Of a stretch of DNA of 64,000 nucleotides, positions 2,379 to 40,680 are shown piece by piece. A model generated the notes under the pieces. That model was not told the origin of the DNA and searched no databases. It saw only the letters and a list, made by a program, of their open reading frames with translations. The stretch lies in IMG/VR virus record IMGVR_UViG_3300025809_001850; one strand, given 5' to 3'. The position numbers and the translations under genes were made by a program. Source of the DNA: a virus. Its lineage: Duplodnaviria; Caudoviricetes. The first letter of the stretch is position 1, and every line of letters starts with the position of its first letter.

Positions 2379-2823
2379 TTACACAGAAATACATGGTTTT
2401 TGTGAAACTTTAGCAAATAGATTAAAACGAAGTAACTTTGATTCGGTAGTGGGTGTAAGTAGAGGTGGATTGATTCCTGCTACTATCATTGCCGAGTGCA
2501 TGAATGTGCGTGAATTAAGAACGGTAGGAGTACGTTCTTATGCGTTAAATGGAATTGGCAAGAGAAGCACCTCCGTTTTGTATCAAAGTTGTTCTCCGTA
2601 CTTAAAGGGTGATGTATTATTGATTGATGATATTGCAGATACAGGTGAAACTTTTAACTTTCTGCTTGATCATTTCAGCAAAAATAAAAACATCAATAGC
2701 ATCACCACTTGTAGTTTGTTTGTTAGACGAAGTTCAAGTTATGTTCCCGATTATTATCATACAGATATTGTAGGAAATGATTGGATTGTGTTTCCTTGGG
2801 AACCTGCTCCACCTTCTAATTAA
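2356..2823 (+). CDS. purine phosphoribosyltransferase (xanthine/hypoxanthine-guanine PRTase-like)
   Basis: VVGVSRGGLIPA, PRPP-binding VLLIDDIADTGET, C-terminal WIVFPWE. Confidence 0.9.
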   Translation: MSNRKYYDYTEIHGFCETLANRLKRSNFDSVVGVSRGGLIPATIIAECMNVRELRTVGVRSYALNGIGKRSTSVLYQSCSPYLKGDVLLIDDIADTGETFNFLLDHFSKNKNINSITTCSLFVRRSSSYVPDYYHTDIVGNDWIVFPWEPAPPSN

Positions 2824-2888
2824 GATTTCCGCAAAAAAAAGTTATTGATTTCATCAACAACTTTTTTTCACTTCAATCAAGTTTTTGA

Positions 2889-2917
2889 TTGACTTTTTAT
2901 AATATTCTTGGTAGTAT
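2889..2917 (+). promoter_or_regulatory. early promoter heading the DPW paralog array
   Basis: TTGACT-17bp-TAGTAT. Confidence 0.8.
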
Positions 2918-2926
2918 GTAAAAAGA

Positions 2927-3247
2927 ATGAGAGATAAAAGAGATAGAGTTTTAATTGATGGTGGAATTTCTTGGCAAACAGATAAATTGCTTGAAAAATA
3001 TCCTATATCAAATGATACAGAGTGGAATGTTGATTTTACAAGCAATCGTTATCCGATGATCGTTTCAAGAATCAAAGAACCTAAACATGATCCTTGGGAT
3101 CGTCCTACTTTGCCTTGGAATTTCAATCAAGGTGATGGCAACAAATATAACTGGACTGCATCATCAATGCACGTCAAAGAATATACTCATTTTCGTTATA
3201 CATCAATCAAAGAAACTGCAATTAAGTTATGGCAAAAGAAACAATAG
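2927..3247 (+). CDS. DPW-family paralog 1
   Basis: KYPISNDTEW / HDPWDRPTLPW / FRYTSIKETAIKLW. Confidence 0.8.
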   Translation: MRDKRDRVLIDGGISWQTDKLLEKYPISNDTEWNVDFTSNRYPMIVSRIKEPKHDPWDRPTLPWNFNQGDGNKYNWTASSMHVKEYTHFRYTSIKETAIKLWQKKQ

Positions 3248-3546
3248 AAATTAATCCGAATGTTGCTTGGTATTCGTTGCAAGAATTATCATTTAGATTT
3301 CCGGTTGTTAATAAACGTTGGCAACGCAATGGAGATTTATTTGAATATTTTTATGATTTAGATGAACAACCTGAAAGTGATCCGTGGGGAAGAAAACTAA
3401 CTCCGTGGACTCGTCTCGGACAAACTGAAATTAATCATTGGGTAAATGCAACTACCAACGGAACATATTATCGGCTAACATCGGTTATGCGAAAAACGGT
3501 TGCATTGTGGATGTATCCTTCACCAAGTCATCCTTTGTATAAATGA
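3229..3546 (+). CDS. DPW-family paralog 2
   Basis: RFPVVNKRW / SDPWGRKLTPW / YRLTSVMRKTVALW. Confidence 0.8.
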   Translation: MAKETIEINPNVAWYSLQELSFRFPVVNKRWQRNGDLFEYFYDLDEQPESDPWGRKLTPWTRLGQTEINHWVNATTNGTYYRLTSVMRKTVALWMYPSPSHPLYK

Positions 3547-3908
3547 CGTTAATTAAAAACGGAATTTTGAATATTGATTTGCTTGCTCCCGGCAACGGAC
3601 TGCACATTCAATCCGAGTATGAACCGAAAAACAAACAATGGTTTCGTTTAGATTCTGAGTGGATTGCTCACGTGCGTCCTGAAACAAACAAAACATCAAG
3701 ATGTCCATTGTTGGAAGAAATTAAAACTGATCCGTGGGAACGGCCACTTATTCCGTGGACTTATGCGTATGCTCAACCTGGTGAAGATTGTTATGGAGCA
3801 CAAAATTGGAAACCAGAAACTAATGATCCTGATGTTCTCAAATTTTATCGGTATGTTACAATAAACGGAAAATATGTAAAACTGAAATTGATTTTCAAAA
3901 ATGATTGA
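3543..3908 (+). CDS. DPW-family paralog 3
   Basis: EYEPKNKQW / TDPWERPLIPW / YRYVTINGKYVKL; ATGA overlap with upstream gene. Confidence 0.8.
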   Translation: MTLIKNGILNIDLLAPGNGLHIQSEYEPKNKQWFRLDSEWIAHVRPETNKTSRCPLLEEIKTDPWERPLIPWTYAYAQPGEDCYGAQNWKPETNDPDVLKFYRYVTINGKYVKLKLIFKND

Positions 3909-4314
3909 ACCTATTACAATTCGTGGAAACCGAAGTATGACTAATTATGGTCAATTGATTTATGATCGTAATCAAGAGCATTTTTATACTTGGCACGAAG
4001 AACTTGATTATATTATCAAAGAGTATCCTATAACGAATCCTGTGTACGATTATTCTCCACATGATATACGATTTAACATAGCAACGAAAACAAATGTAAG
4101 TGTGTTAACGGAGCGGCAAAAAAAGTTTCTCGACTTTGATCCTTGGAATCGTCCACTTCGTAAATGGACTGCAACAGAAACCGCATATCCTGATACAAAC
4201 TTTGCAAGAAAATATGGTCGTGGTCCATACGAATGGTTAGATATTTATGACGGAGTTGATTTTCGTTGGACAACAATAGAAAACAAAGGAATTCGTTTTT
4301 ACAAATATCTATGA
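3901..4314 (+). CDS. DPW-family paralog 4
   Basis: KEYPITN / FDPWNRPLRKW / FRWTTIENKGIRFY. Confidence 0.8.
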   Translation: MIEPITIRGNRSMTNYGQLIYDRNQEHFYTWHEELDYIIKEYPITNPVYDYSPHDIRFNIATKTNVSVLTERQKKFLDFDPWNRPLRKWTATETAYPDTNFARKYGRGPYEWLDIYDGVDFRWTTIENKGIRFYKYL

Positions 4315-4748
4315 AAACAAACAACGATTTTATATTAATTAAGAAATGGCAATTTTATGATGTTTATCCAAAGATTGTGGGTGAGAATGCGTTTCCGATT
4401 ACCAACGAAGATGAATGGGAACGATGGGTTGAACCCATTAATTATCGTAGTCATTTGATTGCACTTGTACCGAATCCTAAATGTGATCCTTGGGGAAGGC
4501 AAATGCTTCCGTATAAAACTGATCACGAAAAAACTCCTTTAATGTGGGGAAAAGTTGGATGGCCACATCCTCCGTTGGATGATATGAATTCCGAAACTTG
4601 CATGACGGTTACTTCAGTAAATGGATTTGCAGTAAAATTGTATCGCAGAAAAGCAGAATGGAATGATCCTTGGCATCGTGCAGAATGCAAAAAACTTGGA
4701 ATAACTTTGAGTGAATATTATGATCGTAAAAAAAATAATAACATTTGA
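4311..4748 (+). CDS. DPW-family paralog 5 (second DPWHR in C-tail)
   Basis: AFPITNEDEW / CDPWGRQMLPY / VTSVNGFAVKLY; start moved to the ATGA overlap at 4311. Confidence 0.8.
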   Translation: MKTNNDFILIKKWQFYDVYPKIVGENAFPITNEDEWERWVEPINYRSHLIALVPNPKCDPWGRQMLPYKTDHEKTPLMWGKVGWPHPPLDDMNSETCMTVTSVNGFAVKLYRRKAEWNDPWHRAECKKLGITLSEYYDRKKNNNI

Positions 4749-4773
4749 CATAATTTTTATAATATCGTAGAAT
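4745..4773 (+). promoter_or_regulatory. internal sigma70-like promoter in DPW array
   Basis: TTGACA-17bp-TAGAAT. Confidence 0.6.
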
Positions 4774-4785
4774 ATAATTAGTAGT

Positions 4786-5028
4786 ATGAGTAAAGAGTGG
4801 GATGTAAATAAATTGATAAACAAATATCCAATCAAGAATATTTGGGAATGGAAATTCACAGGAAATGTTATTACTTCAGTTGTTTGTTTGCATGATATAA
4901 AACAAGATCCTTGGAATCGTGATTTCACAAAAACAAAATCAAACTTTACCGTAGATGAAATGGGATTACTTGTGCATGGATTTACAAAAGTAGATGGAAA
5001 AAAAATAAGATTATGGAGTTGTGTATAA
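4786..5028 (+). CDS. DPW-family paralog 6 (minimal 80-aa form)
   Basis: KYPIKNIWEW / QDPWNRDF / GFTKVDGKKIRLW. Confidence 0.8.
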   Translation: MSKEWDVNKLINKYPIKNIWEWKFTGNVITSVVCLHDIKQDPWNRDFTKTKSNFTVDEMGLLVHGFTKVDGKKIRLWSCV

Positions 5029-5319
5029 ATGAGAACATGGAATAAAGAAAAACTATTATTAAAGTATCCTGTGAGAAATTCATCGGATTATGATGTAAAT
5101 TATGTATTGGGATGTGGCAACGCATATTGGTATCCTGGATTACCAACTAAAATTGTAACTACTGATGGTGATGTTGCATATGATCCTTGGAACCGTGAGT
5201 GGCAAAAAAATACAAAGTGGGAAGCATACAAACCACATAAAGATACATACTTTCGGTGGGTGACCGTTGATAAACAAAAAATTGATGTTTATCTTGTTCA
5301 AAAAAATTATTCAATATAA
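5029..5319 (+). CDS. DPW-family paralog 7
   Basis: KYPVRNSSDY / YDPWNREW / FRWVTVDKQKIDVY. Confidence 0.8.
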   Translation: MRTWNKEKLLLKYPVRNSSDYDVNYVLGCGNAYWYPGLPTKIVTTDGDVAYDPWNREWQKNTKWEAYKPHKDTYFRWVTVDKQKIDVYLVQKNYSI

Positions 5320-5717
5320 TGCCTGTAAAAGAACTTAACATCAATAAAGATACTTGTGGTAAATGGAAATCACGATACATTCTTGATATTCTTGAAAAGT
5401 ATCCACAAATCAATTTCAAAGAATGGGAACTTCTTGAAATGCATCATCAAAATAAACCAAATGAAATTGCAGTTAATATGGTTTGTAAAATATGGTATCC
5501 TAAATTTGATCCGTGGAATAGAGAAATGTGCGATTGGACAATTGGAAATAACAAGTTTTCTGCAAAACACGGAAATCAAGTGAAGCAAGGTGATAACCAT
5601 TCAGTACAACTTCCAAGTATGAAAATCTGGAATACAACGGTTGCAGGACAACTTGTGCGATTGCATGGTCCTGTAAAAAGTTATTTTGTTATTCGTGGAA
5701 CATCTAAAATTTCATAA
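5319..5717 (+). CDS. DPW-family paralog 8
   Basis: KYPQINFKEW / FDPWNREMCDW / WNTTVAGQLVRL. Confidence 0.8.
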   Translation: MPVKELNINKDTCGKWKSRYILDILEKYPQINFKEWELLEMHHQNKPNEIAVNMVCKIWYPKFDPWNREMCDWTIGNNKFSAKHGNQVKQGDNHSVQLPSMKIWNTTVAGQLVRLHGPVKSYFVIRGTSKIS

Positions 5718-5718
5718 C

Positions 5719-6087
5719 ATGAGTTCTTACGCAAATAGTATTCCTCTTTATATTCAACACAACGATATTCAATGGGATGCATTTGATTTGGTAAACAACA
5801 ATTATCCAATTGAAAATGATAATTGGGAAATACAAGAAGGTAATTTTTTGATGCTCAAAGAAAATTCTTCATTTGATCATAATTATGATCCGTGGAATCG
5901 TAAACTAAGAGCATGGAAGTTTCTTGATAAAGATGGTTTTATTGTAGAATGTGATGCGTGGACAATGAAACTTACAAGCAACATTGCAGCTTCACTTTAC
6001 GAAATTCGTTACACCACGGTTGCAGGAAAATCAATTCCATTATGGAGATATTGCGATGAATCAAAATATGTGTGCGTTCCATCCTGA
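5719..6087 (+). CDS. DPW-family paralog 9
   Basis: NYPIENDNW / YDPWNRKLRAW / IRYTTVAGKSIPLW; start moved to ATG 5719. Confidence 0.8.
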   Translation: MSSYANSIPLYIQHNDIQWDAFDLVNNNYPIENDNWEIQEGNFLMLKENSSFDHNYDPWNRKLRAWKFLDKDGFIVECDAWTMKLTSNIAASLYEIRYTTVAGKSIPLWRYCDESKYVCVPS

Positions 6088-6439
6088 AGAAATAATTTTA
6101 GAGAATTTTTCAATGGGTGATCACTGGGGAACCGTTGAACTTATGAAACGATATCCAATTCAAAATCATGAACATTGGTCGTATGTATGTGATCCAATGG
6201 ATGTTGATTGTGATCCTGATGTAGCAAAAAAAATAACTTGTATTTCTGATACAGAATTTGATCCTTGGTTTCGTAAAATGATTCCGTGGAAATGGAGAGG
6301 TCATCAAGAAAGTTGTGAGTGGGATTTTCCTACACCTCATTTGTTTTTAAACGGAAAAAAGAAATATGCACTTGCAGAACGATACACAACAATTCAAGGA
6401 AAGCATACAAAATTGTATAAACGAATATACGATTATTAA
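6068..6439 (+). CDS. DPW-family paralog 10 (start uncertain, 6068 or 6113)
   Basis: RYPIQNHEHW / FDPWFRKMIPW / RYTTIQGKHTKLY. Confidence 0.75.
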   Translation: MCAFHPEEIILENFSMGDHWGTVELMKRYPIQNHEHWSYVCDPMDVDCDPDVAKKITCISDTEFDPWFRKMIPWKWRGHQESCEWDFPTPHLFLNGKKKYALAERYTTIQGKHTKLYKRIYDY

Positions 6440-6507
6440 TACAATTCTATGAATTTACACAAAACAATATTGACTTAGAACCTCTTTTAAAATATATTAT
6501 TATTATT

Positions 6508-6726
6508 ATGAACAAACAAATACCAAAAAACATTCATTCTGCTTTAATTAAAAAATACGAAGCAGAAGCAGATATGGCAAAAGCAAATCTCTCGGTTTAC
6601 GACAACAATATGGTCGGAATAGGAGAACATCAAATTATCGCCGAGACCATTGAAGCAGAATACAAAAAACTTGATTCAGCAATTTCAATGCTTGAAACAC
6701 TAAAAAACAATCCGATTGGTGTATAA
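6508..6726 (+). CDS. small helical hypothetical protein interrupting the DPW array
   Basis: 72 aa, no DPW motif; ALIKKYEAEADMAKANL...VGIGEH pattern recalled from T4-like phage hypotheticals. Confidence 0.65.
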   Translation: MNKQIPKNIHSALIKKYEAEADMAKANLSVYDNNMVGIGEHQIIAETIEAEYKKLDSAISMLETLKNNPIGV

Positions 6727-6741
6727 GCACATAAACTGATT

Positions 6742-7092
6742 GTGGCAACGATGGATAAACCCAGTTTAAACATCAACTTTTATTCAGGTGAACAATGGAG
6801 TGACATCACACTTGTCAAAAAATTTCCACCAAGCAATTCTGTTTGGAATATAGGACTTCACTCTGATGTTGGATACGAACGATATTTCGTATTACCTGAT
6901 GATGCTTTGCATGAAGGACAAGACCCGTGGGAACGATGGATGCTTCCGTGGAGAAAAAACAAAACAGATACAACTACATACGCATGGACTGACACAGAAG
7001 CAGTTTTTGATTTACCTGAGAATCTTGAATATCAATTTCGGTGGACAACTGTAGCAGGTAAAAGAGTGAAGTTGTGGCGTAAAAAACCTTGA
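6742..7092 (+). CDS. DPW-family paralog 11
   Basis: KFPPSNSVW / QDPWERWMLPW / FRWTTVAGKRVKLW. Confidence 0.8.
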   Translation: MATMDKPSLNINFYSGEQWSDITLVKKFPPSNSVWNIGLHSDVGYERYFVLPDDALHEGQDPWERWMLPWRKNKTDTTTYAWTDTEAVFDLPENLEYQFRWTTVAGKRVKLWRKKP

Positions 7093-7117
7093 CTTTTTAT
7101 AAGATTTCAAGTAGTAT
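7089..7117 (+). promoter_or_regulatory. early promoter (repeat family)
   Basis: TTGACT-17bp-TAGTAT-ACTTGTAT. Confidence 0.75.
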
Positions 7118-7123
7118 ACTTGT

Positions 7124-7498
7124 ATGACGATGAAAGAAAAGAATGATGTTTTATTTGTCAATGAAGAATTACCATATGATGGTTGGGTTAAAAAACTTTT
7201 AAAAGAGTATCCTGTTAGAAATGCAGGTTGGAGTATTTTCAAACAAAACAAAGAAACTGCGTTCGTTTGGAACATTGATGATAATTTGATGACAGGTCGT
7301 GAAATTCCTTGTTATTCTAAACGTGATCCTTGGAATCGTCCAATTCGCAATTGGAAGTTTTTTGAAAACGATGAACCAAATGTTTGGTTACCTGTTGATG
7401 ATATGCAACGTCAAAGTTTTGAAGTTCCAACGAACGCAATTCAGTATGCGTGGACAAGCATCAATAATCGTTGCTTTTGTTTGTATTTGATTCAATGA
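7124..7498 (+). CDS. DPW-family paralog 12
   Basis: EYPVRNAGW / RDPWNRPIRNW / YAWTSINNRCFCLY. Confidence 0.8.
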   Translation: MTMKEKNDVLFVNEELPYDGWVKKLLKEYPVRNAGWSIFKQNKETAFVWNIDDNLMTGREIPCYSKRDPWNRPIRNWKFFENDEPNVWLPVDDMQRQSFEVPTNAIQYAWTSINNRCFCLYLIQ

Positions 7499-7857
7499 GT
7501 AATTTAACTGGAATCATGGTTGGAAGTGACTTTTATTCGTATAAAGAATTAAAGCAATTGATAATTGACTTTCCTATTCAAGTAAACGGATGGATTTGTG
7601 ATGTAAATAAAACTCATATGTATTTGTATTACGAAAAAGCATTTGGATTGAGCGATCCACTTTTAACTTTACGTGATCCGTGGAATCGTAGCATTCGTCC
7701 TTGGACTTATTATACAGATGACAATCCCACAATTTGGCAAAGTCGCAAAGCAGAACATCCAAGTCGTAATGCTATGTTTATGCCAACTGCTCCAAAAAAA
7801 GCAAGTCATTATGCGTACACAAGCATAAACAACAAATGGATATTTTTGTATGTTTGA
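7495..7857 (+). CDS. DPW-family paralog 13
   Basis: DFPIQVNGW / RDPWNRSIRPW / YAYTSINNKWIFLY; closest to paralog 12; ATGA overlap at 7495. Confidence 0.8.
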   Translation: MSNLTGIMVGSDFYSYKELKQLIIDFPIQVNGWICDVNKTHMYLYYEKAFGLSDPLLTLRDPWNRSIRPWTYYTDDNPTIWQSRKAEHPSRNAMFMPTAPKKASHYAYTSINNKWIFLYV

Positions 7858-8152
7858 TTTAACAGAAATTGAAGAACGCATTGAACAATCAGAAAAAACG
7901 TTGATTGCGATTACTGATAAAATAAAAGATATGCGAAGTGACTTTGAAGAAATATATTCAGAACTTGAAAATAAAGAGGATGCATATTTTGAAGAACATC
8001 CGAAAGAACGAAAAGCATTAAATGAAAAAATTCGTAAAAGAATGTCGGTGTATGATTTATTAAAAGAAACTGCTGAGAATATTCGCACCAAGACATTTGA
8101 AGATATGCGATTAGTATTTGATGAACTTCAGAAAAACAAATATTACGAGTAA
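7850..8152 (+). CDS. coiled-coil hypothetical protein
   Basis: 100-aa highly charged helical ORF. Confidence 0.6.
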   Translation: MFDLTEIEERIEQSEKTLIAITDKIKDMRSDFEEIYSELENKEDAYFEEHPKERKALNEKIRKRMSVYDLLKETAENIRTKTFEDMRLVFDELQKNKYYE

Positions 8153-8181
8153 GAAAATTATAAAAAAGAAGCATTTAGGTG

Positions 8182-8210
8182 TTGACTTATTATAATAGTT
8201 GTGGTAAGAT
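8182..8210 (+). promoter_or_regulatory. early promoter (repeat family)
   Basis: TTGACT-17bp-TAAGAT followed by TATTGAAAGTGAG. Confidence 0.75.
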
Positions 8211-8247
8211 TACTGTATTGAAAGTGAGAAACGAGAATTTAAAAAAT

Positions 8248-10887
8248 ATGAAAAATATAAGTGATATTACCGGGTATGATTACAATGATAAAGATGGATT
8301 TTTCCCCATATCGAATTCAACAGCTACACCAAACAACCGAACGATTCTTAAAAATGCAAGTGATCGTAAAATCAGTAATGCTATGAATCCTTCACTTAAG
8401 CATCGTTGGGATGCCAAGAAAAAAAGACAGGTTAGAGAAATTTCAGACAAAATTAGTGCAGAAGACATTAAAAAGCAAAAACTCAAGAACGAGTTTGAGT
8501 CTGCCAACTCTGCTATTTCACATAAGCAACTTGAAAAGAAACTCAAAAAGGAATCCAAGAAGAAATCCAAGCATCTTAGAAATATGATGCTGGAACCTTT
8601 CAAGGCAAAAGTTGCGGAAATCGCAAATACTATTGAAAGTCGTAGAATCGCAATGATGTATATAATAAAGGGTGCAACTAACCAAGGCAAAACTTACACA
8701 TCAGCAAAGTTCGCAGTTCCTTATTTAATGAAGAAGCAAGGTGTAGATGTTGTTTTTTATACTTACCCTCAAAATGAAATCTTCAATAAGAACGAGTGGA
8801 GAACCAAAGGTTACAAGATTATTGCTATTGGTGAAAATGATCAAAGAATTTCAAGTCAGATTGATTCACTTTTAGATGACATTGAAAATGATGTTGATCC
8901 TGTCAAATATGTAATCGCAATGACCAACAAAACTCTTGCGTGTGCTAAAAGTAGCACTAATCGTGAATCGCATGGAAAATACCTTGCCAAAAAACTTCAT
9001 TCACTTGGTAAGAAAATGGCATTCATTCTGGATGAATGTCACACATGGACGATCAGCCACATAGATGCTTACACTGATGTCACGGGTAACACGGGTGTAC
9101 CTCCTCAGTATGATGCTTCATTGTTTAAGTTTGTTGCTTGGTTGTCTAAGTACACTAAATTTCTGTTCGGACTTACCGCAACTCCTAACTTTGAGCAAAC
9201 TGGATTACGAGATACAATTAAAAAAGAAGCAAAACTTGATTACTCAGTAATCAACGAGTTTCCTGAACGTGAGGATTTGCTTCACGGACAAGCATGGTCA
9301 AAGAAGTTTGATTTCATGGACATGAAAAATGAAAATGACATTCAGACTAAAATTAGAAATATCACACGGGAGCATCTATCGGACAATATGACTTTGTCAG
9401 CTGCTGGACTTAAGGGAACAATGTTTATTCAGTCTAACACAGAGAAATCCACGAATAATAAAGCATTTGATGTGATGGACAGAATGAAGACTGTTGTCAA
9501 GGATTTACTCATTACTGACGATACCATTGATGATATTTATGATTATCTTAATCCTGAGACTGCTTCATTTGCGATTATATCTTCACATGATGACTGGCAA
9601 GGAGTATATTCCCTTGGGTCAGCATCCCGTCCGTACGACAGATTGGGTGGTTATCTCACCGAAACAGAAATCTACAAAAGGTTGGGTAATCCCAACGACC
9701 CACTTACTTTTTTAATTGCAGTTCAAAAAGGAAAAATGGGATTAAGTGTACACTCGTTCAGAAGTCTTATTTCCTTCAAAAATACCGAAAAGAAAGGCAA
9801 AGACGATGATAACAATTCTATCATAGTAACAACTATGCACGTTCAAACACTTGGACGTATGCCAAGATTGTATGTCCGACCGGACAACAAGAACTATGTA
9901 AAAGAATTCGGATATTCCACATTTGAGTATATAGCAAGAGCAAATGAATCAGAACTTAGTATATTGAAACTCAGTAATTCATATAATGTCCTCGTTGCCG
10001 ACTCGCAGACTTGGAGAGAATCTGTTGCCTGCTTCAACAAGCACTATGGTACTTCTCTTGAAATGGCAGAAAAGGAAATCGATAAAGTTCGTGCTGAATA
10101 CCCAAAGGCAAATCAAATTCCGGTCAATCATAACCTCCCAATAAACGGTGGTATTGTTTCAAACAAAAACGGATTTATTCTTGAAGCAAAGGTATGTCAG
10201 GCACTTATTTTTCAGGTGGAAGAACTCAATGAAAAACTTGGATTAACGGGTAACGATATATACAGAGTTCATTATTTCAAGTACAAGAAACTTCTTCCTT
10301 TGATTGATTCTAAGTATCACTATCTGATTGCGTCCTACCCAACCGATAAAACACCCGGTGGTCACAGAAAAATTCTTTCCAATAAAAATGAAGGTGGTGA
10401 GTATTCTATTGATTTAGATGCTTATATTGCTACACAGAATGATCCATTTGATATAGCAATCGGGTTCACAATTAAGAATGCAACCAAAGATCAAAACGGA
10501 GACGGACTATTAAATGGACTGACAGCAATGGAAGTTGATCTTGGGTTCCCTGGAATCGCAATAGTAAATCTTTATAGTGTAGATGAAAAAAAAACCCAAA
10601 AAAAGTCAAATACCTTTGCAAACAAGAAATCATCAAACACCTACGATAAATTTAAGTTTAATCAACACAAGTATAAGAACTCATTGGAAAGTGAAAACTT
10701 CAAGATCTTTGGTTTGAATGATCGGTCCGACTACGAGAAAATCAATTCAGATTTTCGTGACATGATCGGATATTACTATGATGAAGGAAGTGCTGAAATT
10801 GACCGACTTGTTACGAACCACCACACGGAACTCAAAGAAATACCCACCAAAATACCACGAAGAGGTGTGGATTTAATCTTCAGTTAG
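8248..10887 (+). CDS. SF2 (ResIII/DExH-like) helicase with putative C-terminal restriction-endonuclease-fold domain
   Basis: GATNQGKT (motif I), ILDECH (II), GLTATP (III), QTLGRMPR (VI); C-terminal SNKNGFILEAKV...PFDIAIGFTIK resembles PD-(D/E)xK; track start 8179 lies inside the promoter, so start moved to 8248. Confidence 0.75.
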   Translation: MKNISDITGYDYNDKDGFFPISNSTATPNNRTILKNASDRKISNAMNPSLKHRWDAKKKRQVREISDKISAEDIKKQKLKNEFESANSAISHKQLEKKLKKESKKKSKHLRNMMLEPFKAKVAEIANTIESRRIAMMYIIKGATNQGKTYTSAKFAVPYLMKKQGVDVVFYTYPQNEIFNKNEWRTKGYKIIAIGENDQRISSQIDSLLDDIENDVDPVKYVIAMTNKTLACAKSSTNRESHGKYLAKKLHSLGKKMAFILDECHTWTISHIDAYTDVTGNTGVPPQYDASLFKFVAWLSKYTKFLFGLTATPNFEQTGLRDTIKKEAKLDYSVINEFPEREDLLHGQAWSKKFDFMDMKNENDIQTKIRNITREHLSDNMTLSAAGLKGTMFIQSNTEKSTNNKAFDVMDRMKTVVKDLLITDDTIDDIYDYLNPETASFAIISSHDDWQGVYSLGSASRPYDRLGGYLTETEIYKRLGNPNDPLTFLIAVQKGKMGLSVHSFRSLISFKNTEKKGKDDDNNSIIVTTMHVQTLGRMPRLYVRPDNKNYVKEFGYSTFEYIARANESELSILKLSNSYNVLVADSQTWRESVACFNKHYGTSLEMAEKEIDKVRAEYPKANQIPVNHNLPINGGIVSNKNGFILEAKVCQALIFQVEELNEKLGLTGNDIYRVHYFKYKKLLPLIDSKYHYLIASYPTDKTPGGHRKILSNKNEGGEYSIDLDAYIATQNDPFDIAIGFTIKNATKDQNGDGLLNGLTAMEVDLGFPGIAIVNLYSVDEKKTQKKSNTFANKKSSNTYDKFKFNQHKYKNSLESENFKIFGLNDRSDYEKINSDFRDMIGYYYDEGSAEIDRLVTNHHTELKEIPTKIPRRGVDLIFS

Positions 10888-11861: not shown

Positions 11862-14738
11862 ATGAGTGAAATTAAAGTAGGAGATTTTTATAATTCAGAT
11901 GGCGAGATCACGCAAGAGGATATTCAGTATTTTTTACACGGACTGAAGACTACACTCTTTTCGGAGGCAAACACTACAGAATTTGAAAAATCAAATATAA
12001 CACACAAAGAAAACTTTCGTGGTCCTGGATTTTATGAAGTTCTTAAACTTACATTAATTTCGGGTTCAGAAGTTCCAGATCCAACATTCTACACAGAATT
12101 AACAAGCAACAATACAATAACTTGGACTTGGACTAAAATCGATGGAGCAGTAAAATATTTAATTAAAATAAATGAAGAATCTAAAAATCCAGTAACTACA
12201 GAAGAATATACTATTAGTAATTTAACTGATGGTTCATACAAAATAAGTGTCGCAAGTGAAAATAATGCAGGTATAATTAGCAATTATGGTACACATAAGG
12301 TAGAAGTTGATTCTACTGCTCCTGATGTTCCTGCTCCATCACCGACAACAACAACAACTAATACAACTCCAAACTGGATATGGAAACGTGTAACTGATGC
12401 AGTTAACTATGAGGTTAACCTAAATGGAGAAAGCAAAGGTTCTCAAACCGGAAACAGTTATACTGCACCCACTTTGCAAAATGGAGAATACACAATTTCT
12501 GTGATTGCGATTGATGTGGTGGGAAACAGAAGTGTTGCAGGAACTCACACACTAACAATCAATGCAGATGGTGATTCTGAAAATGCTGAGTTTACAATGA
12601 ATACATCAAATGCAACTGATATGCAATATATGTTTAGTGGTTGTTCATCACTCGTTGAGTTAAATGCTACTAATTGGGATACATCAGCAGTTAAAGAAAT
12701 GGATTATATGTTCAATGCTTGTTCATCTTTGACTTTCGTTGATCTTGGAAAATGGGATGTTTCCAACACAACTGGAGGTGATGCAGACGTAAATGGCATG
12801 ACTTATATGTTTAATGGTTGTTTATCGTTAGACAACAATGGAGTAAACTTCTCCAAGTGGTGTGTAAGTCAATACACAGATGAACCAAGAAACTTCCGAA
12901 CAGAAGGTGTTAAGTTTGTAGAAAAACCAGATTGGGGATTTGCTTGTGAAAACAAAACCCCTGGTCCTATTTCTTCTCCTCCGTATGATTACATTGAATT
13001 AAAATACGATAGAGATATTGCACATTTAATCACGGCAGCGTACACAAGTAAGCAAAGAATTTACTTGCCATTCACCGACTATGGAACGGGAACAACGATT
13101 GAATGGGCAGATGGAAATGTAACATACAAAGAAGGAGTAATTGCATCTACTAATACAACAAACGATTCAGATACTACTATACTCACTTCGAAATACACTA
13201 CAGGTTCAACTATTACTATAAAAGTATATGGAGATGTCAAAAAATTCCTTGGAGCAACTGGTCCACATAATTCATATTGGCGATCCAATATGATTTGGCA
13301 TTCAAATACTGCGTTGAAAAGTGTAAAAATTGTGGGAATGTCAAGTATCATCCACTGCCAACGTGCGTTTGCTAATGCAATCAACTTAGAATCAGTTGAT
13401 TTAACTGAGTTTGATTCAAGCAATGTAATTAATATGGATTATATGTTTTACAAATGCAGTAGCATTGAGACACTCGATTTAAGTAACCAAGACGTAAGCA
13501 ACGTAACTAATTTCGGAAATTTCTTTGATGGTTGCTCTGCATTAACTGATCTGAATATAACAACATGGCAAACCACCGAAGCAACCGCAATGAATCATAT
13601 GTTCAGAAATTGTTCAGATTTACCTTATATCGCACCATCATCCGATAACAATCGTGCAACTGCTGAGTTTACATTGAATACATCAAAAGTTGCTGATATG
13701 AATCATATGTTTAGTGGTTGTTCATCACTTGTAAAACTGCATCCAACCAACTGGGATACATCAGCAGTTAAAGAAATGGATTATATGTTCAATGCTTGTT
13801 CATCTTTGACTTTCGTTGATCTTGGAAAATGGGATGTTTCCAACACAACTGGAGGTGATGCAGACGTAAATGGCATGACTTATATGTTTAATGGTTGTTT
13901 ATCGTTAGACAACAATGGAGTAAACTTCTCCAAGTGGTGTGTAAGTCAATACACAGATGAACCAAGAAACTTCCGAACAGAAGGTGTTAAGTTTGTAGAA
14001 AAACCAGATTGGGGATTTGCTTGTGAAAACAAAACCCCTGGTCCTATTTCTTCTCCTCCGTATGATTACATTGAATTAAAATACGATAGAGATATTGCAC
14101 ATTTAATCACGGCAGCGTACACAAGTAAGCAAAGAATTTACTTGCCATTCACCGACTATGGAACGGGAACAACGATTGAATGGGCAGATGGAAATGTAAC
14201 ATACAAAGAAGGAGTAATTGCATCTACTAATACAACAAACGATTCAGATACTACTATACTCACTTCGAAATACACTACAGGTTCAACTATTACTATAAAA
14301 GTATATGGAGATGTCAAAAAATTCCTTGGAGCAACTGGTCCACATAATTCATATTGGCGATCCAATATGATTTGGCATTCAAATACTGCGTTGAAAAGTG
14401 TAAAAATTGTGGGAATGTCAAGTATCATCCACTGCCAACGTGCGTTTGCTAATGCAATCAACTTAGAATCAGTTGATTTAACTGAGTTTGATTCAAGCAA
14501 TGTAACGAATATGAAATATATGTTCTATAATTGCAGTAAAATTGAAACAATGAATTTAACTGGTTTATTTGATGTAAGCAAAGTAACTGATTTCACTAGT
14601 ACATTTTACAATTGCTCTTCATTGACTGATTTGAATATATCAACATGGCAAACCAACGAAGCAATTACTTTTTATAGTATGTTCAGAAATTGTAGTTCAC
14701 TGGAACATATAGCACCAACCGCAGTAACATCTGAATAA
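11862..14738 (+). CDS. large surface/fibre protein with Ig/Fn3-like domains and DUF285 (BspA-type) leucine-rich repeats
   Basis: WTWTKIDGAVKY and WIWKRVTDAVNY beta-sandwich repeats; repeated xDTSxVxxMxxMFxxCxxL units; internal 359-aa duplication. Confidence 0.8.
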   Translation: MSEIKVGDFYNSDGEITQEDIQYFLHGLKTTLFSEANTTEFEKSNITHKENFRGPGFYEVLKLTLISGSEVPDPTFYTELTSNNTITWTWTKIDGAVKYLIKINEESKNPVTTEEYTISNLTDGSYKISVASENNAGIISNYGTHKVEVDSTAPDVPAPSPTTTTTNTTPNWIWKRVTDAVNYEVNLNGESKGSQTGNSYTAPTLQNGEYTISVIAIDVVGNRSVAGTHTLTINADGDSENAEFTMNTSNATDMQYMFSGCSSLVELNATNWDTSAVKEMDYMFNACSSLTFVDLGKWDVSNTTGGDADVNGMTYMFNGCLSLDNNGVNFSKWCVSQYTDEPRNFRTEGVKFVEKPDWGFACENKTPGPISSPPYDYIELKYDRDIAHLITAAYTSKQRIYLPFTDYGTGTTIEWADGNVTYKEGVIASTNTTNDSDTTILTSKYTTGSTITIKVYGDVKKFLGATGPHNSYWRSNMIWHSNTALKSVKIVGMSSIIHCQRAFANAINLESVDLTEFDSSNVINMDYMFYKCSSIETLDLSNQDVSNVTNFGNFFDGCSALTDLNITTWQTTEATAMNHMFRNCSDLPYIAPSSDNNRATAEFTLNTSKVADMNHMFSGCSSLVKLHPTNWDTSAVKEMDYMFNACSSLTFVDLGKWDVSNTTGGDADVNGMTYMFNGCLSLDNNGVNFSKWCVSQYTDEPRNFRTEGVKFVEKPDWGFACENKTPGPISSPPYDYIELKYDRDIAHLITAAYTSKQRIYLPFTDYGTGTTIEWADGNVTYKEGVIASTNTTNDSDTTILTSKYTTGSTITIKVYGDVKKFLGATGPHNSYWRSNMIWHSNTALKSVKIVGMSSIIHCQRAFANAINLESVDLTEFDSSNVTNMKYMFYNCSKIETMNLTGLFDVSKVTDFTSTFYNCSSLTDLNISTWQTNEAITFYSMFRNCSSLEHIAPTAVTSE
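12584..14717 (+). repeat. tandem intragenic duplication, period 1077 bp (about 12584-13637 and 13661-14717)
   Basis: Core 12675-13428 appears identical to 13752-14505; duplicated antisense ORFs at 13079 and 14156 are identical. Confidence 0.9.
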
Positions 14739-38550: not shown

Positions 38551-40680
38551 ATGAAAAACGTAAGTTTTGTGCTAGTGGGGCTCTTTTTGAGTATTTCTGT
38601 CGGGTTAACCGCACAGGAAAAAATTAATGCCGAAGAACTAAAAGAGATTTCTTTAGAACGAAAAGTTGTTACTATTATTAGTAGCAATGGAAAAGAACAA
38701 ACTGGTAAAGTTCTTGAGTACGATGGAGAAAGTGTGCTATTTCAACGACAACAAGATTTACAACTATTTCGTTTGAAACTTGAAGCACTTGCATTGCAAT
38801 CTCAACGTATGATCAAAGATGATTATATGACTGCTGATTATAATGTACCAAAACTTGAAAGACCATTAAAAGAAGCAACCATTAAAAAGTTGGCAAGATA
38901 TGCTGATAATCTTGTGCTTGAAAAACTTCGTAGTGAACGGCAAAGACCAACCAGTGATACAGATGATTATACTTTTATGCGTAGAGCATATCTCAAGATA
39001 ATTGGTCGTATTCCTGGTAAAGCAGAAATTGATGAATTCAAAACAGAAATGCGTGGAAATAAACTTAAATTAATCAACAAGTTGTTAGACACTGAGGGTT
39101 ATGTTAGTCATCAGTTAAATTATTTTGCTGATATTCTTCGCATTCAAGACAAACTTAATAATACCAACATTAATAGTGGATTTCGTTATCGTGAATTTGT
39201 TCGTACTGAAATTCGTAATAATACTCCGTTTGATGAATTCGTGCAAAAACTAATTGCGGTGGAAGGTGCTTATTATGAACCTGGTAACGAAGCAATAGGA
39301 TTTTATTTGCGTGATCGTGGTATGCCATTAGATAATCTTGCAAACACCGTACAAGTGTTTTTAGGAACTCGTTTAGAATGTGCGATGTGTCATGATCATC
39401 CATTTGATAAATGGACACAAAAGCAGTTTTATGAAATGTCTGCATTCACAGACGGAGTTGGTCGTGTTCGTGGACCAAAAGAGTTTCAAACAATTGTTAA
39501 TGAATTCAATAAACTTGTTCGTGCTGATAAATCACCCGAAAATAACACACTTCAACAATATCGTAATTATATTCGTGATATTATGGGATACGGATTAGCA
39601 GATGAATTAGGCAAAGGAACAATCAAACTCACAGATGCATTTATGGAAGATGATGCAAAACCAGGTGACACACTTCATGCAAAAGCAATTTTTGCACCAC
39701 CATTGAAAATTGAACAAGGAGCAAAACTTCCACAAAGTCGTAAGCAGTTTTCTGAATGGATTACATCAGAAGCAAATCCAAGATTCACCACCGTTATTGT
39801 AAATCGTTTATGGAAACGAGCATTTGGAATTGGGTTGATTGAACCTGTGGACGATATGAATGATATGACCGAATCTAGTAATCCTAAGTTGCTTGCGTAT
39901 CTTGAAAAAATTATGGCATCAGTTGATTATGATGTTAAAGAATTTATGCGAGTGCTTTATAGCATGGATTTATTTACACGTGATAGTGTTAAAGATGATT
40001 ATGAAAGTATGGAAACATTTTACTTTGCAGGACCTCCACTTCAACGAATGACAGGAGAACAAATTTGGGATTCATTGGTAACATTAGTTTACAACAACAT
40101 TGATTCACCTGAACGAGTTCCTTCAAATTACGATGAAAAGTATCAAGCAGTTTATGAACGATACAAAGATAAAACTGCTCAAGAAATTTTTGACGAATTA
40201 AAAGTGTATATCGCCGAGACCGAGAAACCAGCCCGAAATCTTGCAGATGTTGTTGCTCAGTTGAATAAAGCAGAAGGAACAACATACGAACTAAAAAAGA
40301 TACCTGCACGTGATTTGATACGAAGCAGTTACATAGGATATCCCGCAAGAGGTGGACACCTCATTCGTCAGTTTGGTGGAAGTGATAAACAACTCATTGA
40401 AAACTCAAACTTTGAAGCAACTACACCTCAAGTTCTTAATATGCTCAATGGATTCGTTGAGCAAAAAATCGTAAACAATAAAAATGCCGACTTTATGAAA
40501 CAAATGGCACAAGAAAAACGTGAAACCGGAAAAATTGAAGATGTTTTTATGAGCATTCTTAATCGTGAACCAAACGCAAAAGAAATGAAACTTTTGAAAA
40601 AATACATTGATCAAAAAGACGGAGCAAAACATATTGCATGGATTCTTATGAACTCCCATGAATTTATTTTTATTCGTTAA
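38551..40680 (+). CDS. SHD1-DUF1549-DUF1553 protein (PVC-type)
   Basis: Signal peptide; SHD1-like TIISSNGKEQTGKV; DDYTFMRRAYLKIIGRIP; FLGTRLECAMCHDHPFDKWTQ (CxxCH); NPRFTTVIVNRLWKRAFGIGL; AWILMNSHEFIF. Confidence 0.9.
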   Translation: MKNVSFVLVGLFLSISVGLTAQEKINAEELKEISLERKVVTIISSNGKEQTGKVLEYDGESVLFQRQQDLQLFRLKLEALALQSQRMIKDDYMTADYNVPKLERPLKEATIKKLARYADNLVLEKLRSERQRPTSDTDDYTFMRRAYLKIIGRIPGKAEIDEFKTEMRGNKLKLINKLLDTEGYVSHQLNYFADILRIQDKLNNTNINSGFRYREFVRTEIRNNTPFDEFVQKLIAVEGAYYEPGNEAIGFYLRDRGMPLDNLANTVQVFLGTRLECAMCHDHPFDKWTQKQFYEMSAFTDGVGRVRGPKEFQTIVNEFNKLVRADKSPENNTLQQYRNYIRDIMGYGLADELGKGTIKLTDAFMEDDAKPGDTLHAKAIFAPPLKIEQGAKLPQSRKQFSEWITSEANPRFTTVIVNRLWKRAFGIGLIEPVDDMNDMTESSNPKLLAYLEKIMASVDYDVKEFMRVLYSMDLFTRDSVKDDYESMETFYFAGPPLQRMTGEQIWDSLVTLVYNNIDSPERVPSNYDEKYQAVYERYKDKTAQEIFDELKVYIAETEKPARNLADVVAQLNKAEGTTYELKKIPARDLIRSSYIGYPARGGHLIRQFGGSDKQLIENSNFEATTPQVLNMLNGFVEQKIVNNKNADFMKQMAQEKRETGKIEDVFMSILNREPNAKEMKLLKKYIDQKDGAKHIAWILMNSHEFIFIR

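What the first reader, a model, noticed from the sequence alone, without database searches (positions are those of the whole stretch)
2927..7857. Array of 13 hypervariable DPW paralogs, a candidate undescribed diversified effector family
Thirteen of 14 consecutive ORFs (about 80-145 aa) share three collinear motifs: (Y/F)P-x-x-N-x2-3-W, DPW-x-R-x3-W, and (Y/W)-T-(T/S)-(V/I)-x-(G/N)K-x-(I/V)-x-L-(W/Y). The loops between motifs are unrelated in length and sequence. Most genes are translationally coupled (ATGA/TAATG) and driven by early promoters at 2889, 4745 and 7089. Paralogs 12 and 13 are the most alike, suggesting ongoing duplication. A fixed aromatic scaffold with variable loops suggests a binder library, for example inhibitors of different host defence proteins or host variants. 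I do not recognise the family; function is inference.
Basis: partly seen in the sequence, partly recalled or inferred. Interest (0 to 1): 0.88.

Follow-up and report, generated by a model that had tools for sequence, protein, structure and literature searches.

The report
Old 13-gene family in marine phage
An uncultured marine jumbo phage carries 13 back-to-back genes for very different versions of one small tryptophan-rich protein that matches no known family or fold; the copies are old and conserved rather than hypervariable, and their function is untested.

Summary
Window 2927-7857 (+) carries 13 genes of 80-145 aa that share the collinear motifs YPxxN..W, DPWxR...W and R.TTV.GK..L. A 72-aa non-member interrupts the array. 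A profile built without any one copy still finds that copy (E 4e-8 to 1e-20); no other ORF in the window scores better than E 0.02.

"Hypervariable" and "ongoing duplication" are not supported:
- Each paralog has a collinear ortholog in related 200-500 kb marine contigs, at 34-82% identity (most 60-80%).
- Pooled dN/dS is 0.18-0.37 in core and loops alike.
- All duplications predate the divergence of these genomes.

What varies is gene content: 12-17 copies per genome, an apparent exact loss of p12, and allele swaps in ocean populations.

A conserved terminator plus a sigma70-type promoter precedes the array.

The function is inferred: most likely cytoplasmic, target-specific binders used in host takeover or counter-defence. 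The scan has met the same kind of array in other jumbo phages, but not this family.

The parts
2834..2868 (+). Terminator-like hairpin (A8, stem-loop, U7) after the phosphoribosyltransferase gene
   Evidence: RNA fold -9.5 kcal/mol, z -4.2, 0 of 200 shuffles as good. The spacer 2821-2932 is 91% identical across 5 genomes, although the flanking proteins are only 60-78% identical.
2889..2917 (+). Promoter P1 (TTGACT-17-TAGTAT, extended motif). The p1 ATG lies 9 nt after the -10 element, so the leader is very short.
   Evidence: Conserved in L001, L003, L008 and L013.
2927..3247 (+). DPW paralog p1 (106 aa)
   Evidence: leave-one-out E 1e-20. AF2 model pLDDT 75.5, pTM 0.68. Orthologs in L001, L003, L008, L013.
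3229..3546 (+). DPW paralog p2 (105 aa)
3543..3908 (+). DPW paralog p3 (121 aa). This slot has two allele classes about 41% identical.
3901..4314 (+). DPW paralog p4 (137 aa)
   Evidence: In the orthogroup alignment the loops are conserved, with 82% mean column identity.
4311..4748 (+). DPW paralog p5 (145 aa), with a second W-x-DPW-x-R-A-E motif in its C-terminal tail
4745..4773 (+). Promoter-like site P2 (TTGACA-17-TAGAAT), overlapping the p5 stop codon
   Evidence: 11 of 12 consensus matches. A looser variant of the extended motif; a similar site is present in L013.
4786..5028 (+). DPW paralog p6 (80 aa, shortest)
5029..5319 (+). DPW paralog p7 (96 aa)
   Evidence: (weakest leave-one-out, E 4e-8).
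5319..5717 (+). DPW paralog p8 (132 aa)
5719..6087 (+). DPW paralog p9 (122 aa)
   Evidence: One metagenome contig replaces this gene with 389 other letters.
6056..6439 (+). DPW paralog p10 (127 aa; ATG at 6056, 32-nt overlap with p9)
   Evidence: The start matches P0101 and the N-terminus conserved in L001.
6508..6726 (+). 72-aa non-member ORF inside the array
   Evidence: No family HMM hit. Its ortholog lies next to the asparaginase gene in L001, L003 and L008, but inside the array in L013.
6742..7092 (+). DPW paralog p11 (116 aa from GTG 6742, or 113 aa from ATG 6751)
   Evidence: AF2 model pLDDT 81.9, pTM 0.75.
7089..7117 (+). Promoter P3 (TTGACT-17-TAGTAT, extended motif). The p12 ATG lies 6 nt after the -10 element.
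   Evidence: An equivalent site lies before L008_16.
7124..7498 (+). DPW paralog p12 (124 aa)
   Evidence: The joint 7123->7495 removes exactly this gene in contigs of two metagenomes.
7495..7857 (+). DPW paralog p13 (120 aa; ATGA overlap with p12)
7850..8152 (+). 100-aa helical ORF that overlaps p13 by 8 nt and follows the array in every relative. It is a likely operon partner, not a family member.

Best explanation
This is an old, lineage-specific multigene family of a clade of uncultured marine jumbo phages. The window has thirteen copies; relatives have 12 to 17.

SHOWN
- Each copy encodes a small, soluble, tryptophan-rich alpha/beta protein. The shared scaffold runs strand, helix ending in YPxxN, two strands, an ordered DPWxR...W loop, then a C-terminal hairpin R.TTV.GK..L.
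- The segments between these elements are specific to each paralog.
- The copies arose by duplications that predate the divergence of the sampled genomes. Each has since been kept under purifying selection.
- The array is remodelled by loss or gain of whole genes and by swapping of divergent alleles between co-circulating phages.
- It appears to be transcribed from host-type (sigma70-like) promoters in three or four short, translationally coupled units. It starts just after a conserved terminator.

INFERRED
- The proteins act inside the infected cell as a panel of target-specific binders.
- The shared scaffold, and possibly the DPWxR motif, provides the fold or a common docking point. The paralog-specific surfaces each recognise a different host protein, for example a defence or takeover target.
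For: Family reality.

Orphan status:
- No Pfam, PHROG, NCBIfam or PADLOC family.
- No PDB sequence hit.
- No tblastn hit in 50,697 phage records.
- Only 60 clusters in 1.84e9 proteins.
- 129 of 154 hits are at least 60% identical to members of four sampled arrays.

Fold: two models at pLDDT 82 and 76 share the same element order. They have no neighbour in PDB, AFDB, BFVD or ESM Atlas.

Age and constraint:
- Collinear orthogroups with long between-paralog branches.
- Pooled dN/dS 0.18-0.37.
- Identity 0.64 within orthogroups against 0.23 between paralogs.
- Loops conserved in the p4 orthogroup.

Content variation:
- 12-17 copies per genome.
- Allele classes at the p3 slot.
- Loss of p12 and replacement of p9 in metagenome contigs.

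Cytoplasmic and soluble: no hydrophobic segment; pI 4.7-9.4.

Regulation: recurring promoter motif and conserved terminator-promoter spacer.

Presence in RNA libraries: contigs from four RNA-seq runs of three studies cover most of the array.

Analogy (established knowledge): tandem, deeply diverged small-protein families with copy-number variation in large DNA viruses are usually host-interaction genes. Jumbo phages are known to carry lineage-specific expansions (PMC7824862).
Against: - No partner, ligand, phenotype or timing has been measured.
- The same promoter motif also precedes genes of many other kinds in the window, so it does not by itself mark an early class.
- RNA-library contigs cannot exclude DNA carry-over.
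- dN/dS shows no positive selection of the kind an arms race might leave. dS is near saturation, however, and no site-level test was possible.
- The invariant Asp and Arg could mark a shared ligand pocket or active site rather than a scaffold.
- No model coordinates were available, so it is unknown whether DPWxR is buried or exposed.
Confidence: 0.4

Rival explanations
1. This is a family that binds small ligands, either a nucleotide-signal sponge or a lectin-like glycan binder. The invariant Asp, Trp, Arg and second Trp would form a shared pocket: aromatic stacking plus charged contacts. The variable segments would tune which nucleotide or sugar is bound.
For: - The only invariant polar residues across 147 sequences are the D and R of DPWxR, flanked by conserved Trp. 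Purely structural cores are usually hydrophobic or Gly/Pro.
- The p5 orthologs keep a second copy of the motif outside the domain.
- Both models give weak but recurrent similarity to the ligand-binding beta-alpha-beta-beta-beta modules of the VOC/bleomycin-resistance superfamily.
- According to unchecked earlier notes, the genome invests heavily in glycan synthesis.
Against: - No known sponge or lectin family is matched by sequence or fold.
- Thirteen to seventeen different ligands would be an unusually large set.
- A DP-W-x-R turn with a salt bridge is an equally good structural explanation.
Confidence: 0.15
2. These are virion-associated or assembly proteins: decoration proteins, internal or ejected proteins, or chaperones or adaptors for the phage's many fibre-like proteins. 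On this reading, different paralogs serve different structural partners.
For: - The neighbourhood holds large surface-type proteins (DUF285/BspA LRR, Ig-like) and a ClpP-like head-maturation protease at 21256-21897.
- T4-type phages are known to carry variable arrays of small internal proteins (established knowledge).
Against: - The N-termini are not conserved between paralogs, so no shared capsid-targeting or cleavage sequence is visible.
- The genes are not interleaved with fibre genes. They always sit between a nucleotide-salvage enzyme and a helical ORF, helicase or asparaginase.
- The operon structure resembles small non-structural gene blocks.
Confidence: 0.12
3. These are nucleic-acid-binding or transcription-modulating proteins, for example a set of factors that redirect host RNA polymerase or bind phage DNA or RNA.
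For: - Several paralogs are basic (pI 9.0-9.4 in p1, p6, p7, p8, p13).
- One distant member (P0153) has an N-terminal extension that looks like a helix-turn-helix (judged by eye only).
- The phage G zinc-ribbon expansion was proposed to be transcription factors (PMC7824862).
Against: - Other paralogs are acidic (pI 4.7-6.1).
- No known DNA- or RNA-binding fold or motif was matched.
- The helix-turn-helix reading of P0153 was not tested, and its contig is only 1.1 kb long.
Confidence: 0.08
4. These are functionless or decaying duplicates, or artefactual ORF calls.
For: No function is known. Copy number varies and single genes can be lost.
Against: - All 13 frames are open, and their orthologs are open in several genomes.
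- dN/dS is well below 1.
- Paralog-specific segments are conserved.
- The regulatory spacer is conserved.
Confidence: 0.03

Closest known systems
Lineage-specific tandem expansions in jumbo phages
   Same: Head-to-tail, same-strand arrays of small, deeply diverged paralogs of one fold in a very large phage genome. They have no characterised function, and host-interaction or regulatory roles have been proposed for them.
   Different: The sequence family and predicted fold are unrelated. This array is smaller (12-17 copies). The phages are uncultured and marine. Here 1:1 orthology across relatives and purifying selection on each copy were shown directly.
Multigene families of large eukaryotic DNA viruses (ASFV MGF110/360/505; poxvirus terminal host-range families)
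   Same: Tandem, ancient paralogs with gene-level presence/absence variation between strains. They are interpreted as panels of host-interaction proteins. This is a comparison of kind, from established knowledge.
   Different: The hosts are different and there is no homology. Here the array is internal to a phage genome, is polycistronic with overlapping start and stop codons, and no phenotype is known.
T4-type internal protein (IP) loci
   Same: Variable sets of small phage proteins that differ between related phages. At least one (IPI*) is a counter-defence protein (established knowledge).
   Different: IP proteins share an N-terminal capsid-targeting sequence and otherwise unrelated bodies. 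DPW proteins show the reverse pattern: variable N-termini and a shared domain core.
VOC / glyoxalase / bleomycin-resistance beta-alpha-beta-beta-beta module
   Same: It is the only fold class that recurs among the weak structural matches of both models. Some members are small proteins that bind a ligand by sequestration.

Membership tests
Viral lineage-specific tandem multigene family (a kind, not a homologous family) | Three or more homologous genes, adjacent and on the same strand | tested here: met
   13 members in 4.9 kb, all on the + strand. Leave-one-out HMM E 4e-8 to 1e-20.
Viral lineage-specific tandem multigene family (a kind, not a homologous family) | Restricted to one viral lineage | tested here: met
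   60 clusters in 1.84e9 proteins, one of them a spurious ankyrin-repeat match. 129 of 154 hits are at least 60% identical to members of four syntenic arrays. None found in INPHARED or in the IMG/VR scans.
Viral lineage-specific tandem multigene family (a kind, not a homologous family) | Copy-number or content variation between related genomes | tested here: met
   Window 13 copies, L003 12, L001 15, L008/L009 17; the partial L013 contig has two members the window lacks, and a related record lists 15 family-sized genes. Exact loss of p12 in metagenome contigs.
   Pooled dN/dS 0.18-0.37 in match and insert positions. Ortholog identity is 34-82%, most 60-80%, against 42-77% for flanking small ORFs. 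No site-level test was possible, and dS is near saturation.
   The closest paralog pair is 33% identical. No short between-paralog branch in 57 sequences from four genomes.
Ankyrin repeat (raised by hit P0122) | 33-residue helix-turn-helix repeats | tested here: not met
   P0122 is a 1340-aa ankyrin protein whose repeats happen to contain KYPDMIN and GLDPWCR. The DPW models place beta strands between the two motifs, and the spacing varies between paralogs.
VOC / glyoxalase / bleomycin-resistance superfamily | Paired beta-alpha-beta-beta-beta modules with significant structural similarity | tested here: not met
Pol-beta-type nucleotidyltransferase / Gad2-like (raised by an ESM Atlas row) | Conserved hG[GS] and [DE]x[DE] catalytic motifs on the NTase fold | tested here: not met
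   TM 0.46 over 82 residues, for the p1 model only. The family's conserved columns hold no G[GS] or DxD pattern.
T4-type internal proteins | Shared N-terminal capsid-targeting sequence cleaved by the prohead protease | tested here: not met
   The first ~15 residues are not conserved between paralogs. Presence in virions is not testable here.
Known anti-defence protein families | Homology to a characterised counter-defence protein | tested here: inconclusive
   No hits in PHROGs, Pfam or BFVD. No dedicated anti-defence library was available. Function is not testable with these tools.

The most novel reading that the evidence does not exclude
The DPW proteins are a new fold that serves as a modular binder scaffold. 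A pan-array of about 20 distinct, individually conserved specificities would be shuffled gene by gene among abundant ocean jumbo phages, each one neutralising a different host defence or takeover target. The DPWxR motif would act as a common docking element.
Probability: 0.25. Interest if true: 0.75.

Novelty: new variant of a known kind. Interest (0 to 1): 0.5.

Why it matters
Jumbo phages are widespread in the ocean, and most of their genes have no known role (PMC9123017). This array is a clean, well-bounded case. It combines one apparently new small fold, a dozen or more old and separately conserved versions, defined regulatory signals, and gene-by-gene presence/absence in natural populations.

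If the copies prove to be host-protein binders, they would give a ready-made panel for finding the defence or physiology targets of an uncultured host. They would also give a new small scaffold for binder design.

If they prove to be ligand binders or virion parts, that would change how such arrays in large phages are read. In either case the family deserves a database entry.

Tried and rejected
- **Nucleotide search.** Megablast of the array against GenBank phages found nothing.
- **Protein-level search of phages.** tblastn of p4, p11 and a 1016-aa neighbour found nothing.
- **IMG/VR scans.** A scan with p8 and one with the p4 orthogroup found no relatives. The 13-paralog alignment was too diverged to seed a scan.
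- **Whole genome.** None is held for the window. The long metagenome records behind L001 and L003 could not be searched whole. I therefore could not check for DPW copies elsewhere in the genome.
- **ESM Atlas by features.** No usable hit.
- **Ankyrin hit P0122.** Rejected as a motif coincidence.
- **VOC and NTase/Gad2 structural rows.** Rejected as noise-level.
- **phrog_37794 and phrog_15821.** These hit single members over about 35 residues at E 5e-4 to 1e-2 and were judged insignificant.
- **Generic promoter scan.** It is not enriched over shuffles (27 found against 29 expected). Only the extended recurring motif carries weight.
- **Distant members.** The contigs of P0153, P0155, P0121 and P0108 are too short (0.6-2 kb) to give new context. 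L014 again places the family right after the phosphoribosyltransferase gene.
- **Model coordinates.** The tools do not give them, so burial of DPWxR could not be assessed.

Full report
**1. What is there**

Window 2927-7857 holds fourteen consecutive + strand ORFs. Thirteen align into one family. Its consensus runs I....W....L...YPIxNxxW, then a variable segment, then P..DPWxR...(P)W, then a second variable segment with one Trp, then R.TT(V/I).GK.(V/I).L.

D-P-W-x-R is invariant in the 13 copies. In a 147-sequence family alignment R is invariant, and D, P, W and the downstream W are at least 90% conserved.

Pairwise identity between copies is only 20-33%. The paralogy is nevertheless beyond chance. 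A profile built from any 12 copies finds the thirteenth among all 414 stop-to-stop ORFs of the window at E 4e-8 to 1e-20. The best non-member never scores better than E 0.02.

I refined two starts. p10 begins at ATG 6056, supported by the conserved N-terminus in relatives. p13 begins at ATG 7495, in an ATGA overlap with p12. The 72-aa ORF at 6508-6726 is not a member.

Within the array, eight of twelve junctions overlap or lie at most 1 nt apart.

The proteins have no hydrophobic segment. Their pI ranges from 4.7 to 9.4, and they contain 4-7% Trp.

**2. Genome context**

The window is AT-rich (about 34% GC), and nearly all genes are on one strand. It encodes:
- a ClpP-like head-maturation protease, an ATP-dependent DNA ligase, a CobS-like AAA protein, and a protein shared with T4-like cyanophages;
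- large DUF285/BspA-LRR proteins and planctomycete-type DUF1549/DUF1553 proteins.

Earlier unchecked notes from this scan place the window at least 70 kb inside a phage genome that continues at least 195 kb beyond it.

Family members occur on marine metagenome contigs of 200-495 kb, from Tara and JGI. The array DNA itself is held by at least 14 marine metagenome runs.

There is no nucleotide or protein match to any of 50,697 GenBank phage records. Two IMG/VR scans also found none.

I read this as an uncultured marine jumbo phage. Its host is unknown, but the canonical -35/-10 promoters argue for a host with a standard sigma70.

**3. Regulation**

A generic promoter scan is not enriched over shuffles. 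However, an extended motif, TTGACTTTTTATAATAATTTTGGTAGTAT (often followed by ACTTGTATTGAGAGTGAG), occurs 16 times in the window. All copies are on the + strand and in gene spacers. They include 2889 (before p1), 7089 (before p12) and 8182 (before the helicase). The site at 4745 (before p6) is a looser variant.

The spacer between the phosphoribosyltransferase gene and p1 is 91% identical in five genomes. Its flanking proteins are only 60-78% identical. The spacer contains two elements:
- an A8-hairpin-U7 terminator-like element (-9.5 kcal/mol, z -4.2);
- the promoter.

The p1 and p12 start codons lie 9 and 6 nt after the -10 element, so their leaders are very short. No Shine-Dalgarno sequences are evident.

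The array is therefore a set of three or four short polycistronic units. That they are 'early' is an inference from the promoter type. The same motif also precedes genes of many other kinds.

Contigs from four RNA-seq libraries of three studies cover 16-28 of 30 bins of the region. This is compatible with transcription but is not proof of it.

**4. Evolution**

The family HMM counts:
- 13 members in the window;
- 15 in L001;
- 12 in L003, as 9 + 3, split by an inserted block of glycosyltransferase, sulfotransferase and kinase genes;
- 17 in L008 and L009.

L013, the closest relative, is a partial contig that carries two members the window lacks. A related record without DNA lists 15 genes of family size in the same layout.

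In every case, including the most distant fragment (L014), the array begins right after the phosphoribosyltransferase gene.

A maximum-likelihood tree of 57 members from four genomes resolves each window paralog into a well-supported orthogroup, collinear with the others. Between-paralog branches are about 1 substitution per site or longer. Within-orthogroup branches are mostly 0.05-0.4.

Even p12 and p13, the most alike, have separate orthologs in L001. The extra members in relatives branch as deeply as the rest. Copy-number differences therefore look like differential retention, or exchange, of old genes rather than new duplication. Counting these extras by eye from the tree and from L013 gives about 20 orthogroups in all.

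Ortholog identity is 34-82%, mostly 60-80%. That is similar to the flanking small ORFs (42-77%) and lower than the flanking enzymes (73-78%).

Nei-Gojobori dN/dS, pooled over orthologs, is 0.24-0.31 for profile match positions and 0.18-0.37 for paralog-specific insert positions. dS is near saturation, so these are rough values.

Column by column, identity is 0.64 within orthogroups against 0.23 between paralogs. Only 17 of 112 columns act as a shared scaffold.

The p4 orthogroup shows the 'loops' conserved almost residue for residue, apart from one segment that occurs in two or three haplotypes.

So the family is diverse between paralogs but not hypervariable over time.

What does change is content:
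- The p3 slot has two allele classes about 41% identical. L013 is 84-96% identical to the window in its other window-type members (73% in p4), yet it carries the other class at p3.
- DNA contigs from two metagenomes join 7123 to 7495, which removes exactly p12.
- One contig replaces p9 with 389 unrelated letters.
- Other contigs place the 72-aa ORF next to the asparaginase gene, as in L001, L003 and L008.

These joints come from contigs laid at 85% likeness with sides of 40-53 nt, so they are suggestive rather than proven.

**5. Structure and homology**

No member hits Pfam, PHROGs, NCBIfam or PADLOC above noise. The family profile finds no PDB sequence.

The exhaustive profile search of 1.84 billion representatives found 60 clusters. 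Fifty-nine are small metagenomic proteins of 49-181 aa. The sixtieth is a 1340-aa ankyrin-repeat protein, discussed below.

AlphaFold2, run with the 147-sequence alignment, gives:
- p11: pLDDT 81.9, pTM 0.75;
- p1: pLDDT 75.5, pTM 0.68.

Both models have the same order of elements: strand, helix ending at YPxxN, two strands, an ordered non-regular DPW segment, short strands, and a C-terminal hairpin. This agrees with one common fold, judged at the level of secondary structure only.

Neither model has a structural neighbour:
- Foldseek against PDB, BFVD and AFDB clusters: no E-value below 0.3.
- ESM Atlas: best TM 0.39 and 0.46.

Two weak resemblances were considered and rejected as membership:
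- The only recurring one is to VOC/bleomycin-resistance modules, at noise level.
- One Atlas row of phage nucleotidyltransferase/Gad2-like proteins reached TM 0.46. It is not backed by the NTase motifs.

The ankyrin hit comes from repeats that happen to contain KYPDMIN and GLDPWCR. The DPW models are beta-stranded between the two motifs, so I reject homology.

**6. Mechanism**

Shown:
- an old, conserved, cytoplasmic-type small-protein family with a fixed core and paralog-specific conserved surfaces;
- co-transcribed genes;
- gene content shuffled in natural populations.

Inferred (about 0.4): the proteins form a panel of target-specific binders used inside the infected cell for host takeover or counter-defence. 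This is by analogy with other viral multigene families and jumbo-phage expansions (PMC7824862).

The invariant D and R, and a second W-x-DPW-x-R-A-E in the tail of four of five p5 orthologs, leave open that the motif is functional, as a docking element or a ligand pocket, rather than purely structural.

The rivals are listed with their tests: a ligand sponge or lectin, a virion or assembly role, and nucleic-acid binding.

**7. Novelty and verdict**

I found no description of this family. Searches for DPW with phage terms returned nothing relevant, and the comparative jumbo-phage papers do not mention it.

The kind of thing, a lineage-specific tandem array of small diverged paralogs in a jumbo phage, is known. 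This scan has also met it in 121Q/RaK2-type coliphages. The family and its predicted fold are new.

I score it as a new variant of a known kind, of moderate interest. Its 'hypervariable, ongoing duplication' reading is not supported, and its functional idea remains plausible but untested.

Noticed in passing
window 278, 2889, 7089, 8182, 19900, 22984, 25679, 28580, 29334, 30815, 43832, 44281, 46714, 52105, 53099, 54387 (+ strand): An extended promoter motif of about 29-47 nt occurs 16 times: TTGACTTTTTATAATAATTTTGGTAGTAT, often followed by ACTTGTATTGAGAGTGAG. All copies are on the + strand and lie before genes. It is shared with the close relative L013, and the copy before p1 is conserved in all five genomes.
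   Followed up: partly
window 2821-2932: The spacer between the phosphoribosyltransferase gene and p1 is 91% identical in five genomes whose coding sequences are far more diverged. It holds an A8-hairpin-U7 element and the promoter.
   Followed up: yes
window 6508-6726: The 72-aa ORF inside the array lies next to the asparaginase gene in L001, L003 and L008, but inside the array in the window and in L013. This is a local rearrangement.
   Followed up: partly
window 4311-4748 (p5), residues about 117-125: A second W-x-DPW-x-R-A-E motif follows the domain in the C-terminal tail. It is kept in four of five p5 orthologs and is degenerate in L013.
   Followed up: partly
window 8179-10887: The ResIII-type helicase after the array is very variable. 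It is only 30% identical to its L001 counterpart, absent from L003 and L008, and missing from contigs of metagenome run X12.
   Followed up: no
window 38551-40680; L001 19397 onward: The phage carries planctomycete-type DUF1549/DUF1553 (PSCyt2/PSD1) and DUF1501 proteins, plus two large DUF285/BspA-LRR proteins at 11862-14738 and 49022-51481. This may be a clue to host or habitat.
   Followed up: no
window 2900-7900, gene starts: No Shine-Dalgarno-like sequence lies before the DPW genes. The p1 and p12 start codons lie 9 and 6 nt after the -10 element, so their mRNAs are nearly leaderless.
   Followed up: no
L003 12840-17654: In one relative the array is split by an inserted block of GT2, sulfotransferase, protein-kinase-like and GT25 genes.
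   Followed up: no
window 3901-4314 orthogroup (alignment A4), residues 50-68: One segment between YPxxN and DPW occurs as two or three distinct haplotypes that are combined with otherwise near-identical backgrounds. This suggests recombination within the gene.
   Followed up: no
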